From: Escherichia coli
Lineage (GTDB): Bacteria; Pseudomonadota; Gammaproteobacteria; Enterobacterales; Enterobacteriaceae
Assembly: GCF_003790525.1 (NCBI RefSeq)
Contig: NZ_CP033635.1
DNA: 64,000 nt
Strand: one strand, 5' to 3'
Shown here: piece after piece, positions 23,130-26,591 of the stretch
Layout: the number at the start of each line of letters is the position of its first letter
How positions within the stretch are numbered: the first letter of the stretch is position 1
Notes under the pieces: model-generated
What the model saw: only the letters and a program-made list of their open reading frames with translations
Databases searched by the model: none
Told to the model about the DNA's origin: nothing
Program-made: the position numbers and the translations under genes

Positions 23130-24848
23130 ATGCGTACTAGCCAATACCTGCTCTCCACTCTCAAGGAGACACCTGCCGACGCCGAGGTGATCAGCCATCA
23201 GCTGATGCTGCGCGCCGGGATGATCCGCAAGCTGGCCTCCGGGTTATATACCTGGCTGCCGACCGGCGTGCGCGTTCTGAAAAAAGTCGAAAACATCGTG
23301 CGTGAAGAGATGAACAACGCCGGTGCGATCGAGGTGTTAATGCCGGTGGTTCAGCCATCTGAACTGTGGCAAGAGAGTGGTCGTTGGGAACAGTATGGCC
23401 CGGAATTGCTGCGTATTGCTGACCGTGGTGACCGTCCGTTCGTACTTGGCCCAACTCATGAAGAAGTGATTACCGACCTGATTCGTAACGAGCTGAGCTC
23501 TTACAAACAGCTGCCGCTGAACTTCTATCAGATCCAGACCAAGTTCCGCGACGAAGTGCGTCCGCGTTTCGGCGTCATGCGTTCCCGCGAATTCCTGATG
23601 AAAGATGCTTACTCTTTCCATACTTCTCAGGAATCCTTACAGGAAACCTACGATGCAATGTATGCGGCCTACAGCAAAATCTTCAGCCGCATGGGGCTGG
23701 ATTTCCGCGCCGTACAGGCCGACACCGGTTCTATCGGCGGTAGCGCCTCTCACGAATTCCAGGTGCTGGCGCAGAGCGGTGAAGACGATGTGGTCTTCTC
23801 CGACACCTCTGACTATGCAGCGAACATTGAGCTGGCAGAAGCTATCGCGCCGAAAGAACCGCGCGCTGCTGCTACCCAGGAAATGACGCTGGTTGATACG
23901 CCGAACGCGAAAACCATCGCGGAACTGGTTGAACAGTTCAATCTGCCGATTGAGAAAACGGTTAAGACTCTGCTGGTTAAAGCCGTTGAAGGCAGTAGCT
24001 TCCCGCTGGTTGCGCTGCTGGTGCGCGGTGACCACGAGCTGAACGAAGTTAAAGCAGAAAAACTGCCGCAGGTTGCCAGCCCGCTGACTTTTGCGACCGA
24101 AGAAGAAATTCGTGCCGTGGTTAAAGCCGGTCCGGGTTCACTGGGTCCGGTAAACATGCCGATTCCGGTGGTGATTGACCGTACCGTTGCGGCGATGAGT
24201 GATTTCGCTGCTGGTGCTAACATCGATGGTAAACACTACTTCGGTATCAACTGGGATCGCGATGTCGCTACCCCGGAAATTGCTGATATCCGTAACGTGG
24301 TGGCTGGCGATCCAAGCCCGGATGGTCAGGGTACGCTGCTGATCAAACGTGGTATCGAAGTCGGTCACATCTTCCAGCTGGGTACCAAGTACTCCGAAGC
24401 ACTGAAAGCCTCCGTACAGGGTGAAGATGGCCGTAACCAAATCCTGACGATGGGTTGCTACGGTATCGGTGTAACGCGTGTGGTAGCAGCGGCGATTGAG
24501 CAGAACTACGACGAACGCGGCATCGTATGGCCTGACGCTATCGCGCCGTTCCAGGTGGCGATTCTGCCAATGAACATGCACAAATCCTTCCGCGTACAGG
24601 AACTTGCTGAGAAACTGTACAGCGAACTGCGCGCACAAGGTATCGAAGTGCTGCTGGATGACCGCAAAGAGCGTCCGGGCGTGATGTTTGCTGATATGGA
24701 ACTGATCGGTATTCCGCACACTATCGTGCTGGGCGACCGTAACCTCGACAACGACGATATCGAATATAAATATCGTCGTAACGGCGAGAAACAGTTAATT
24801 AAGACTGGTGACATCGTCGATTATCTGGTGAAACAGATTAAAGGCTGA
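23130..24848 (+). CDS. proS: Prolyl-tRNA synthetase, 572 aa
   Basis: ORF 23076..24848; trimmed to [20 protein letters not shown]...; class II aaRS motifs. Confidence 0.93.
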
Positions 24849-24855
24849 TGCCAGA

Positions 24856-24886
24856 AAGGGTCCTGAATTTCGGGGCCCTTTTTTAC
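24856..24886 (+). terminator. proS intrinsic terminator
   Basis: aaaGGGTCCtgaatttcGGGGCCCtttttt hairpin plus T-run immediately after stop. Confidence 0.65.
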
Positions 24887-24900
24887 ATGGATTGTATAAA

Positions 24901-25725
24901 ATGGATAAACCAAAGGCGTACTGCCGCCTGCTTCTCCCCTGCTTTCTTTTACTTTCGGCCTGTACCGTTGATATCAGCCAGCCAGACTCATCAGCCACAG
25001 CGGTAAATGCCGAGGCGAAAACATGGGCTGTTAAATTCCAGCATCAAAGCTCTTTCACCGAACAATCAATAAAAGAAATAACAGAACCAGATCTCAAACC
25101 CGGCGATTTGCTTTTCTCCTCAAGCCTTGGGGTAACCTCATTTGGTATCCGCGTATTCAGCACTTCCTCTGTGAGTCACGTTGCAATCTATTTGGGAGAT
25201 AATAACGTTGCCGAAGCGACAGGCGCTGGCGTCCAGATTGTTTCACTTAAAAAAGCCATGAAGCATAGTGATAAGCTTTTCGTCTTACGAGTCCCGGACC
25301 TTACCCCGCAACAAGCCACAGAAATCACCGCGTTCGCCAATAAAATCAAAGATAGCGGTTATAACTATCGCGGCATTGTCGAATTTATTCCATTTATGGT
25401 GACTCGCCAGATGTGCTCACTGAATCCGTTCTCCGAGGATTTTCGCCAACAGTGCGTCAGCAGCCTGGCGAAAGCGCAGTTAAGTAACGTTGGCGAAGGA
25501 GACAAAAAGTCGTGGTTTTGTTCGGAATTTGTCACTGATGCATTTGCCAAATCCGGGCATCCGCTTACGCTGGCGCAATCGGGCTGGATTAGCCCTGCCG
25601 ATCTGATGCATATGCGTAGTGGTGATGTCTCTGCATTTAAACCAGAAACGCAGTTACAGTATATTGGGCACCTGAAGCCAGGGATTTATATTAAAGCAAG
25701 TCGCTTTGTTGGACTGACTCAGTGA
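24901..25725 (+). CDS. yaeF: Putative lipoprotein YaeF, permuted papain-fold (C92/YiiX-like) peptidase, 274 aa
   Basis: ORF 24892..25725; start at MDKPKAYCRLLLPCFLLLSACTVD (lipobox LSAC); His motif SHVAIYLG precedes Cys motif WFCSEFV. Confidence 0.82.
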   Translation: MDKPKAYCRLLLPCFLLLSACTVDISQPDSSATAVNAEAKTWAVKFQHQSSFTEQSIKEITEPDLKPGDLLFSSSLGVTSFGIRVFSTSSVSHVAIYLGDNNVAEATGAGVQIVSLKKAMKHSDKLFVLRVPDLTPQQATEITAFANKIKDSGYNYRGIVEFIPFMVTRQMCSLNPFSEDFRQQCVSSLAKAQLSNVGEGDKKSWFCSEFVTDAFAKSGHPLTLAQSGWISPADLMHMRSGDVSAFKPETQLQYIGHLKPGIYIKASRFVGLTQ

Positions 25726-25750
25726 TAAAAGCCAGCCTCGTGCGCAAAAT

Positions 25751-25848
25751 GCCGGATGCGGCGTGAACGCCTTATTCGGCCTACAAAATCGTGCTAATTC
25801 AAAATATTGCATTGTATGCTTTAGGCCTGATAAGCGCAGCGCATGAGG
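25751..25848. repeat. REP/BIME element pair between convergent yaeF and nlpE
   Basis: gccggatgcggcgtgaacgccttattcggcctac (canonical REP) and aggcctgataagcgcagcgcatgagg in inverted orientation. Confidence 0.8.
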
Positions 25849-25880
25849 CAATATTTCATTTGTTTCTGTCTCAAGACGGG

Positions 25881-26591
25881 TTACAGCCCCAAACTACTGC
25901 AATCATGGTTCGGGTAAAATTTACCCGCCGTATCGGGCGCTAATACTTTAGTCGGCGCACCGGTATCGGGATTAGCCTCCAGCGTAAAGTGACCTTCAAC
26001 TGACAGTAACACTGGTTTTTCACTGTTACCCCGCGCAGCCAGGTAGCCACGCTCCAGCTCTGCGTTATTCGCCACAATAAAACGTTTTCCGGTCGCGCAA
26101 TCAGTAAAGGTCGCCGCATCAGCCATATAGAAATACATGCCACGCAGGGTCATCGGCGTCATTGGCATGCTCGATTTTGCCGGTTCCAGCGTGTAGTTGA
26201 ACTGCGATTCAATGGGATTACCTTCACGATCGAGCATCTCCAGTGCATCCCCTTTCGCTCGATAATATGACTTTTCACCTTTGCTGTCGGTTAATACCAG
26301 CTTGTCGGCAGTTCGCGCCCATGTACCGTAGGAGGCAAAGGATGAAGGCTCTTCACGAGCGCCAAGATAGCGCTCGCTCATCACCCAGGTTCCATCTTTT
26401 TCGAGGAACAGAGAGGTTTCGATCCCTTCGCAATCGGCACACGGCAGCACGCCGCGCCAACTTTGCGGCATCGGTTTCAGTTCGGCAGCCTGCGCCGGAG
26501 AAAGCGTGTCGACTTCGGCCCGATTGTTACATCCCATCAGAGTAAAGAGGCTGATTACAGCCATCGCTGTCACTATCGCTTTTCTCACCAT
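25881..26591 (-). CDS. nlpE: Outer-membrane lipoprotein NlpE (CutF), Cpx pathway activator, 236 aa
   Basis: Lipobox LMGCNN; CXXC motif LPCADCEG. Confidence 0.92.
   Translation of the reverse strand: MVRKAIVTAMAVISLFTLMGCNNRAEVDTLSPAQAAELKPMPQSWRGVLPCADCEGIETSLFLEKDGTWVMSERYLGAREEPSSFASYGTWARTADKLVLTDSKGEKSYYRAKGDALEMLDREGNPIESQFNYTLEPAKSSMPMTPMTLRGMYFYMADAATFTDCATGKRFIVANNAELERGYLAARGNSEKPVLLSVEGHFTLEANPDTGAPTKVLAPDTAGKFYPNHDCSSLGL

What the first reader, a model, noticed from the sequence alone, without database searches (positions are those of the whole stretch)
24901..25725. yaeF: poorly characterised lipoprotein with permuted papain-fold catalytic motifs
The product has a lipobox (LLLSAC) and a His motif (SHVAIYLG) that precedes a Cys motif (WFCSEFV). 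That His-before-Cys order is typical of permuted papain-fold (YiiX/C92-like) peptidases or amidases. The gene is flanked by a REP/BIME cluster and reads as more A/T-rich than its neighbours. Substrate and function are, to my knowledge, undefined.
Basis: partly seen in the sequence, partly recalled or inferred. Interest (0 to 1): 0.3.

Follow-up and report, generated by a model that had tools for sequence, protein, structure and literature searches.

The report
yaeF: known permuted papain-like lipoprotein
This is the ordinary, already catalogued E. coli core gene yaeF, a lipoprotein carrying a rearranged papain-type cysteine enzyme domain whose substrate has not been identified in any source I could search.

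Summary
Window 24901-25725 (+) is an intact 274-codon ORF, 100% identical to yaeF of E. coli SMS-3-5. RefSeq names it 'YaeF family permuted papain-like enzyme'.

- **Motifs:** the lipobox (LLLSAC, Cys21), the His motif (His93) and the Cys motif (Cys207) are all present, in that order.
- **Family:** NCBIfam NF008552 scores 536 bits over the full length, and Pfam PF05708 passes its threshold.
- **Catalytic residues:** His93, Glu105, Tyr154 and Cys207 align with all four catalytic residues of those enzymes. They are 89-99% conserved over 102 diverse relatives.
- **Distribution:** the gene is in 5423 of 5426 complete E. coli genomes, and proS-yaeF-nlpE order is kept as far as Klebsiella and Chania. 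The modest A/T richness (47.5% GC) is therefore not a sign of recent import.
- **REP/BIME:** it lies only on the 3' side.
- **Function:** I found no experimental function in the literature.
- **New here:** the YaeF-type domain carries a 40-50-residue two-cysteine helical insert. In distant multidomain proteins it sits beside peptidoglycan-hydrolase domains, never lipase domains.

Verdict: already known, low interest.

The parts
24853..24883 (+). proS intrinsic-terminator-like hairpin followed by a T run. It ends 15-18 nt before the yaeF start codon.
   Evidence: RNA fold -25.9 kcal/mol, z -3.74, 14-bp stem. No sigma70-like promoter was found between it and the ATG.
24901..25725 (+). yaeF coding sequence (274 codons plus stop)
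   Evidence: ORF and translation; RefSeq CDS yaeF; NCBIfam NF008552 at 535.6 bits, full length.
24901..24963 (+). Lipoprotein signal peptide, residues 1-21. It has a basic n-region (K3, K5, R9), a hydrophobic core and the lipobox L-S-A-C. Cys21 is the codon at 24961-24963. Residue +2 is Thr, not Asp.
   Evidence: Sequence. Cys21 is invariant, and Thr22 and Asp24 are at least 90% conserved, in 30 orthologues. Closest non-enterobacterial relatives also carry lipoboxes. Outer-membrane sorting is inferred from the established +2 rule and was not tested.
25072..25680 (+). Permuted NlpC/P60 catalytic domain (residues 58-260)
25177..25179 (+). His93 codon, the catalytic base
   Evidence: 99% conserved over 102 sequences. 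Aligns with His49 of YiiX and BcPPNE (residue identities from PMC3142127).
25213..25215 (+). Glu105 codon, the third triad residue that orients His
   Evidence: 98% conserved. Aligns with Glu64 of YiiX and BcPPNE.
25360..25362 (+). Tyr154 codon, the NlpC/P60 signature Tyr thought to contact the P1 carbonyl
   Evidence: 89% Tyr and 10% Phe. Aligns with Tyr115 of YiiX in 'GKPYDF'.
25363..25518 (+). Clade-specific insert between Tyr154 and Cys207: two helices (156-173 and 179-193). It includes Cys172 (25414-25416) and Cys185 (25453-25455), a probable disulfide.
   Evidence: Both Cys are 99% conserved. Helices come from the AF2 model. The insert is 41-56 residues in all 102 relatives, against 13 residues in YiiX and 27 in BcPPNE. 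The disulfide is inferred.
25519..25521 (+). Cys207 codon, the catalytic nucleophile and first residue of helix 207-217
   Evidence: 99% conserved. Aligns with Cys128 of YiiX and Cys154 of BcPPNE. Helix position.
25751..25849 (.). BIME: REP 25751-25784 (+) and inverted REP 25822-25849 (-) in the yaeF-nlpE spacer
   Evidence: One mismatch to each REP pattern, with none expected by chance. The first pattern was recalled from memory and the second was modelled on this site, so that match is partly circular. Sub-threshold Rfam hits to the REP-derived naRNA4 and ES036. Spacer fold z -4.44. Parts of the 1.3-kb query recur at a median of 6 places per E. coli genome.

Best explanation
yaeF encodes a lipoprotein whose mature part is an active cysteine enzyme of the circularly permuted NlpC/P60 (YaeF/YiiX, C92) kind. 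It is predicted to be sorted to the inner face of the outer membrane.

Inferred mechanism: His93, oriented by Glu105, deprotonates Cys207 at the N-terminus of its helix. The thiolate attacks the carbonyl of an amide or ester bond, and Tyr154 contacts the P1 carbonyl. The resulting thioester acyl-enzyme is resolved by water (hydrolase) or by an acceptor (acyltransferase).

The substrate pocket would be built by the family-specific helix 78-87 and a clade-specific, probably disulfide-stapled helical hairpin (156-193).

Substrate class is not settled. I lean towards a fatty-acyl group on an envelope lipid or lipoprotein (about 0.45), against a peptidoglycan or peptide amide (about 0.35) and other substrates (about 0.2).

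Shown here: gene, family membership, fold, conservation of all catalytic residues, purifying selection. Inferred: lipidation and outer-membrane sorting, the disulfide, catalytic geometry, chemistry and substrate.
For: - **Family:** NCBIfam equivalog 535.6 bits against 279; Pfam PF05708 above threshold.
- **Catalytic residues:** all four catalytic residues of YiiX and BcPPNE align with His93, Glu105, Tyr154 and Cys207. They are 89-99% conserved in 102 sequences down to about 25% identity.
- **Selection:** dN/dS is 0.107 between SMS-3-5 and K-12. The gene is present in 5423 of 5426 E. coli genomes.
- **Lipoprotein:** the lipobox is invariant.
- **Lean to fatty acyl:** YiiX crystallised with a fatty acid, and permuted members have hydrophobic S1 pockets (PMC3142127). 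Characterised permuted relatives act on fatty-acyl groups, namely Tox-Act1/TseH, LnsA, RID and Cln5. The pocket-forming helix aB is retained in YaeF.
Against: - No experiment on YaeF was found in the searchable literature.
- Pfam PF05708 aligns only the His half (residues 65-156).
- In multidomain relatives the YaeF-type domain keeps company with peptidoglycan hydrolases and never with lipase-type domains. The His half also passes the canonical NLPC_P60 threshold. Both argue against the lipid lean.
- Hydropathy of the insert does not distinguish the lipoprotein clade from the multidomain clade.
- Neighbourhoods of stand-alone homologues are inconsistent.
Confidence: 0.8

Rival explanations
1. 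YaeF is a peptidoglycan-directed peptidase or amidase. It is tethered to the outer membrane and cuts a stem-peptide bond or a peptide attached to the wall. Its chemistry is that of MepS, LytE or CwlO despite the permuted topology.
For: Among 62 multidomain relatives with a complete YaeF-type domain, the partner domains were:
- Amidase_2 (7) and Amidase_3 (6)
- Phage_lysozyme (3)
- Peptidase_M15/VanY and PG_binding_1
- Peptidase_C70 (20) and trypsin (5)

No lipase or phospholipase family appeared. The recurrent order is Amidase_2, then YaeF-like, then C70. Residues 34-121 of YaeF pass the Pfam NLPC_P60 threshold (36 against 23 bits). They are 28-37% identical to CwlO, MepS and LytE over 54-59 aligned residues. 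The Snodgrassella homologue follows an OmpA-family gene.
Against: The full-length structural neighbours are the lipid- or amino-acid-binding permuted enzymes, not wall peptidases. Xu et al. judged the permuted S1 pocket unsuitable for peptides. Every characterised permuted relative found handles fatty acyl groups. Envelope-attacking cocktails could combine wall and lipid activities, and those relatives are only about 25-31% identical to YaeF.
Confidence: 0.35
2. YaeF is an acyltransferase rather than a hydrolase. It would move a fatty acyl group from a phospholipid to a protein or lipid acceptor at the outer membrane, in the manner of LRAT/PLAAT, LnsA or RID.
Against: The nearest relatives, YiiX and BcPPNE, were interpreted as amidases. 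No acceptor, partner gene or conserved operon was found. Nothing in the sequence distinguishes transfer from hydrolysis.
Confidence: 0.15
3. The A/T-rich gene is a recent horizontal acquisition, or a decaying or non-enzymatic remnant.
For: GC is 47.5% against 51.5% for the window, and GC3 is 48% against 53-61% in neighbours. yaeF is unusually divergent between E. coli lineages. There is a REP/BIME next to it.
Against: proS-yaeF-nlpE synteny is kept in Klebsiella and Chania, with the same lowered GC there. The gene is in 5423 of 5426 genomes, nearly always full length. dN/dS is 0.107. Catalytic residues are 89-99% conserved. The neighbouring nlpE is even more divergent, so the divergence is regional.
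Confidence: 0.04

Closest known systems
YiiX (E. coli, PDB 2IF6) and BcPPNE (Bacillus cereus, PDB 3KW0): YaeF/YiiX family of permuted NlpC/P60 enzymes (Pfam PF05708, MEROPS C92)
   Same: - Same permuted order His, Glu, Tyr, Cys, with all four residues aligned.
- Same extra helix aB before the His strand.
   Different: - YaeF is a lipoprotein.
- It keeps an N-terminal segment (residues 34-57) that aligns to the canonical NLPC_P60 Pfam profile.
- It has a 53-residue Tyr-to-Cys spacing with a two-Cys helical hairpin, against 13 residues in YiiX and 27 in BcPPNE.
- It ends in a conserved YVGHLK strand (Y254 98%, G256 100%, H257 96%).
- The Lys-binding Glu67/Asp68 of BcPPNE are not conserved.
- The Pfam model aligns only the His half of YaeF.
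Canonical NlpC/P60 peptidoglycan endopeptidases (MepS/Spr, LytE, CwlO; Pfam PF00877)
   Same: The His-bearing beta-sheet half is shared, including the GDL(L/V)F and SHV(A/G)IY(L/I)G motifs. It passes the PF00877 threshold and is 28-37% identical over 54-59 residues. Like MepS and NlpC, YaeF is a lipoprotein. Distant YaeF-type domains sit beside wall hydrolase domains.
   Different: The nucleophile helix lies after the sheet rather than before it, because the domain is circularly permuted. The third triad residue is Glu rather than His. There are extra helices around the pocket.
Lipid-acting permuted relatives: LRAT/PLAAT (H-RAS-like suppressors), T6SS effectors TseH and Tox-Act1, LnsA, RID, Cln5
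   Different: The similarity is much weaker, at 10-25% identity over 92-124 residues. YaeF is a chromosomal core gene without an immunity partner or secretion-system context. No lipid activity has been shown for it.
Viral permuted amidases (poxvirus G6R/OPG091, giant-virus and phage C92 proteins)
   Same: Foldseek matches to BFVD with probability 1.0 and E down to 6e-9. Same family name.
   Different: 12-23% identity. No lipoprotein signal. Function also unknown.

Membership tests
YaeF family (NCBIfam NF008552, equivalog) | Full-length score above the curated cut-off of 279 bits | tested here: met
   535.6 bits, E=1.9e-161, residues 1-274 on profile positions 1-274.
YaeF/YiiX permuted NlpC/P60 (Pfam PF05708, C92) | Pfam gathering score of 27 bits | tested here: met
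   46.5 bits, but only residues 65-156 aligned to profile positions 2-98 of 166. The family profile A2 hits 3kw0 at E=2.8e-11 and 2if6 at E=1.8e-10.
YaeF/YiiX permuted NlpC/P60 (Pfam PF05708, C92) | Circular permutation: catalytic His and third polar residue precede the catalytic Cys, with the signature Tyr between them | tested here: met
   His93, Glu105, Tyr154 and Cys207 align with YiiX His49, Glu64, Tyr115 and Cys128. They are 89-99% conserved.
YaeF/YiiX permuted NlpC/P60 (Pfam PF05708, C92) | Papain-like alpha+beta fold superposable on solved members | tested here: met
YaeF/YiiX permuted NlpC/P60 (Pfam PF05708, C92) | Cys and His side chains juxtaposed in a catalytic dyad | not testable with these tools
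   Model coordinates are not exposed. The only indirect support is that Cys207 starts helix 207-217, His93 starts strand 93-99, and the model superposes on templates at 2.1-2.3 A.
YaeF/YiiX permuted NlpC/P60 (Pfam PF05708, C92) | Thiol-dependent hydrolase or transferase activity | not testable with these tools
Bacterial lipoprotein | Signal peptide ending in a lipobox [LVI][ASTVI][GAS]C | tested here: met
   Residues 18-21 are L-S-A-C after a basic n-region and a hydrophobic core. Cys21 is invariant in 30 orthologues. Actual acylation was not tested.
Canonical NlpC/P60 (Pfam PF00877) | Catalytic Cys on a helix N-terminal to the His-bearing sheet | tested here: not met
   PF00877 matches residues 34-121 (36 bits). 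No Cys lies in the mature protein before His93, and the conserved nucleophile is Cys207.
REP/BIME element | About 35-bp imperfect palindromes in inverted pairs, repeated around the genome, in an intergenic position | tested here: met
   Two inverted REPs at 25751-25784 and 25822-25849. Strong fold, z -4.44. Rfam naRNA4 and ES036 hits below threshold. Multiple places per genome. Present on the 3' side only.

The most novel reading that the evidence does not exclude
The YaeF clade is marked by the two-Cys helical hairpin and the YVGHLK strand. It may be a peptidoglycan- or peptide-directed branch of the permuted NlpC/P60 enzymes, which would be an exception to the current view that permuted members act on lipids. 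The same domain is reused as a module of large cell-wall-degrading proteins that lack signal peptides. These proteins have shared N-termini and lie in a gene cluster with no Pfam or PHROGs matches, seen in Anaerolineae-type metagenomes.
Probability: 0.3. Interest if true: 0.5.

Novelty: already known. Interest (0 to 1): 0.2.

Why it matters
YaeF is one of two permuted NlpC/P60 proteins in E. coli. It is a nearly universal envelope lipoprotein, encoded between the genes of two envelope-stress sensor lipoproteins (rcsF upstream, nlpE next to it). No function for it appears in the searchable literature. Assigning its substrate would fill a gap in the map of E. coli envelope enzymes. It would also test whether 'permuted means lipid-acting' holds across the superfamily. 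The finding as submitted adds nothing beyond the existing annotation.

Tried and rejected
- **First AF2 model.** Run on 30 close orthologues, it was unusable (pLDDT 57.6). It was replaced by a model on a 48-sequence alignment that included distant lipoprotein homologues.
- **afdb50 fold library.** Not installed.
- **Single-sequence PDB search.** Only marginal hits.
- **The repeat finder.** With seed 7 it found no inverted repeats in the spacer. The REPs were recovered by pattern search instead.
- **Promoter scan.** No sigma70-like site upstream of yaeF.
- **Literature.** 'yaeF', 'b0193/ECK0193/P37056', 'YiiX/YebB/YycO/C92' and 'permuted NlpC/papain-like' gave no functional study of YaeF. The CFT073 NsrR ChIP peak listed beside yaeF belongs to c0233, a strain-specific transposase-like gene.
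- **Gene neighbourhoods.** For stand-alone homologues they are inconsistent: OmpA-like, FA_hydroxylase, M24 peptidase, or unknown proteins.
- **Insert hydropathy.** Kyte-Doolittle hydropathy of the Tyr-Cys insert does not separate lipoprotein from multidomain clades.
- **Neighbours of multidomain relatives.** Pfam and PHROGs scans gave nothing above threshold.
- **Recent horizontal transfer.** Rejected on synteny and on the shared low GC in orthologues.

Full report
**What is there.** The window is a stretch of an E. coli chromosome identical to strain SMS-3-5 (NC_010498.1) over 24700-26000. Coordinates 24901-25725 (+) are an uninterrupted 274-codon ORF. It coincides exactly with the RefSeq CDS yaeF, named 'YaeF family permuted papain-like enzyme'. 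The local gene order is metQ, rcsF, tsaA, proS, yaeF, then nlpE, arfB and yaeQ on the opposite strand. An in-frame TTG at 24892 exists, but Met1 at the ATG 24901 is invariant in 30 orthologues.

**The three motifs.**
- LLLSAC is residues 16-21.
- SHVAIYLG is residues 92-99.
- WFCSEFV is residues 205-211.

**Flanks and composition.**
- *5' side.* There is no REP upstream. The 52-nt proS-yaeF spacer is filled by a strong terminator-like hairpin at 24853-24883 (-25.9 kcal/mol, z -3.74). No sigma70-like promoter lies before the ATG, so how yaeF is transcribed is open.
- *3' side.* The 155-nt spacer to the convergent nlpE holds two REPs in inverted orientation: 25751-25784 (+) and 25822-25849 (-), each one mismatch from its pattern with none expected by chance. 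The first pattern was recalled from memory; the second was modelled on this site, so its match is partly circular. The spacer folds at z -4.44 and gives sub-threshold Rfam hits to the REP-derived naRNA4 and ES036. This is one BIME, on one side only.
- *Composition.* yaeF has 47.5% GC and 48% GC3. proS has 54.2% and 61%, nlpE has 52.7% and 54%, and the window as a whole is 51.5% GC. The A/T richness is real but modest.

**Family and fold.**
- *Profile hits.* NCBIfam NF008552 (YaeF equivalog) scores 535.6 bits over the full length, against a cut-off of 279. Pfam PF05708 (Peptidase_C92) scores 46.5 against 27 but aligns only residues 65-156. PF00877 (canonical NlpC/P60) scores 36 against 23 over residues 34-121.
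- *Structure models.* A first AlphaFold run on close orthologues failed (pLDDT 57.6). A second run, on 48 sequences including distant lipoprotein homologues, gave pLDDT 88.8 and pTM 0.87.
- *Viral neighbours.* The viral library returns phage and giant-virus C92 proteins and poxvirus OPG091/G6R.

**Catalytic residues.** A profile of the family aligned to the solved chains gives these correspondences (residue identities from PMC3142127):

| YaeF | YiiX | BcPPNE |
|---|---|---|
| His93 | His49 | His49 |
| Glu105 | Glu64 | Glu64 |
| Tyr154 | Tyr115 | not aligned by the profile search (Tyr127 is its catalytic Tyr) |
| Cys207 | Cys128 | Cys154 |

In the model, Cys207 is the first residue of helix 207-217. 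His93 opens strand 93-99, and Glu105 lies in the next strand. This is the papain-type arrangement.

Conservation was measured over 102 domain sequences, spanning about 25-100% identity:
- His93 99%, Glu105 98%, Cys207 99%.
- Tyr154 89%, with Phe in a further 10%.
- Asp69 100%, Arg130 99%.
- Cys172 and Cys185 99% each.
- Tyr254 98%, Gly256 100%, His257 96%.

**What distinguishes YaeF within the family.**
- The Tyr-to-Cys spacing is 53 residues, against 13 in YiiX and 27 in BcPPNE. The extra 41-56 residues form two helices (156-173 and 179-193) that carry the conserved Cys172/Cys185 pair. I read this as a disulfide-stapled hairpin; that is an inference.
- According to Xu et al. this region is one wall of the S1 pocket.
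- YaeF also retains the family-specific helix 78-87.
- Residues 34-57 align to the canonical NLPC_P60 Pfam profile.
- The protein ends in a conserved YVGHLK strand.

**Distribution and evolution.**
- *Within E. coli.* yaeF is in 5423 of 5426 complete genomes, and at least 80% of its length is covered in 5419.
- *Across Enterobacterales.* Orthologues of at least 50% identity come from Citrobacter, Klebsiella, Enterobacter, Serratia and related genera. The proS-yaeF-nlpE order is kept in Klebsiella huaxiensis and Chania multitudinisentens. yaeF is again about 4 GC points below proS there. The low GC is therefore an old property of the gene, not a mark of recent import.
- *Selection.* Between SMS-3-5 and K-12, yaeF has dN/dS 0.107, which indicates purifying selection.

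**How it most likely works.**
- *Localisation.* The protein has a typical lipoprotein signal. Thr at +2 predicts Lol-dependent sorting to the outer membrane. That prediction rests on the established Asp+2 retention rule and was not tested here.
- *Chemistry.* The mature domain has everything needed for thiol catalysis through a thioester intermediate.
- *Substrate.* The substrate is unknown: four full-text searches found no experimental study of YaeF.
- *Evidence for a fatty-acyl substrate.* The nearest full-length folds bind a fatty acid (YiiX) or an amino acid (BcPPNE), and they have hydrophobic S1 pockets. Every characterised permuted relative I found handles fatty-acyl groups.
- *Evidence for a peptidoglycan substrate.* A profile search of 1.84 billion representatives gave 1935 hits. 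The closest non-enterobacterial ones are stand-alone lipoproteins. More distant hits are 400-1500-residue proteins without signal peptides that contain a complete YaeF-type domain. Their partner domains, out of 62 scanned, are Peptidase_C70 (20), Amidase_2 (7), Amidase_3 (6), trypsin (5), Phage_lysozyme (3), M15/VanY and PG_binding_1. No lipase-type family appears.
- *Where this leaves the substrate.* Gene neighbourhoods of the stand-alone homologues do not settle it. I put fatty-acyl substrates at about 0.45, peptidoglycan or peptide amides at about 0.35, and other substrates at about 0.2.

**Comparison with what is known, and verdict.** The gene, its family, the permutation and even the family's name are established (Anantharaman and Aravind 2003, as cited in PMC3142127 and PMC6403190; Pfam PF05708; NCBIfam NF008552). 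The small additions from this work are the clade-specific insert, the conserved Cys pair, and the wall-hydrolase company of distant relatives. Novelty: already known. Interest: low (0.2).

Noticed in passing
window 24901-26591 (yaeF and nlpE), compared with proS at 23130-24848: yaeF and nlpE form a species-wide divergence hot spot. Against this window, 67% of E. coli genomes are only 90-95% identical in yaeF and 87% in nlpE. Only 1 of 5424 is that divergent in the adjacent proS. Against K-12, dS is 0.21 for yaeF and 0.29 for nlpE but 0.09 for proS, with dN/dS about 0.1. This suggests old allele classes or recombination at this locus.
   Followed up: partly
window 24849-24900: The proS terminator hairpin ends about 15-18 nt before the yaeF ATG. 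No sigma70-like promoter and only a weak Shine-Dalgarno (GGA, by eye) are visible. yaeF may depend on read-through or on a promoter inside proS.
   Followed up: partly
window 25726-25880, compared with L002 4826-5024 (K-12): The yaeF-nlpE spacer differs in REP content between strains. It is 155 bp here and 199 bp in K-12, which has an extra REP near yaeF and lacks the one near nlpE. Only 2982 of 5426 genomes match at least 80% of 24700-26000 in one piece. CFT073 carries c0233, a transposase-like gene with an NsrR site, next to yaeF.
   Followed up: partly
L003 6562-20689 (Anaerolineae MAG JAGRBY010000016.1) and L004 983-12127 (JGI 3300048083): Large multidomain proteins carrying a YaeF-type domain plus wall hydrolase and protease domains sit in a shared cluster. 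The cluster has otherwise unannotated genes (about 390, 250-260, 734-802, 345-370 and 411-440 aa) and an S8 peptidase. Pfam and PHROGs give nothing above threshold, apart from a weak Trypco2 plus a TIG domain. This may be an undescribed conflict or delivery system.
   Followed up: partly
proteins P0204, P0207, P0208, P0210, P0225, P0179 and others (N-termini): Many of these multidomain proteins start with a shared motif. One form is 'MPAQIRPNRLEVTDRFPMLGFTIRT'. A second group starts 'M.NRF..LE'. Neither has a Pfam match. These may be trafficking or packaging domains.
   Followed up: no
L010 3805-5870 and L011 3625-5786: In two unrelated genomes the stand-alone YaeF-like lipoprotein gene overlaps the stop of the upstream gene by 4 bp, which looks like translational coupling. 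The upstream gene is a FA_hydroxylase-family gene in one case and an M24 (PepP-like) aminopeptidase gene in the other. These give contradictory hints about the substrate.
   Followed up: no
L002 7375-8672 (K-12 record NZ_CP009685.1): tilS is annotated as frameshifted in this particular MG1655 assembly. This is probably an assembly error and is unrelated to the finding.
   Followed up: no
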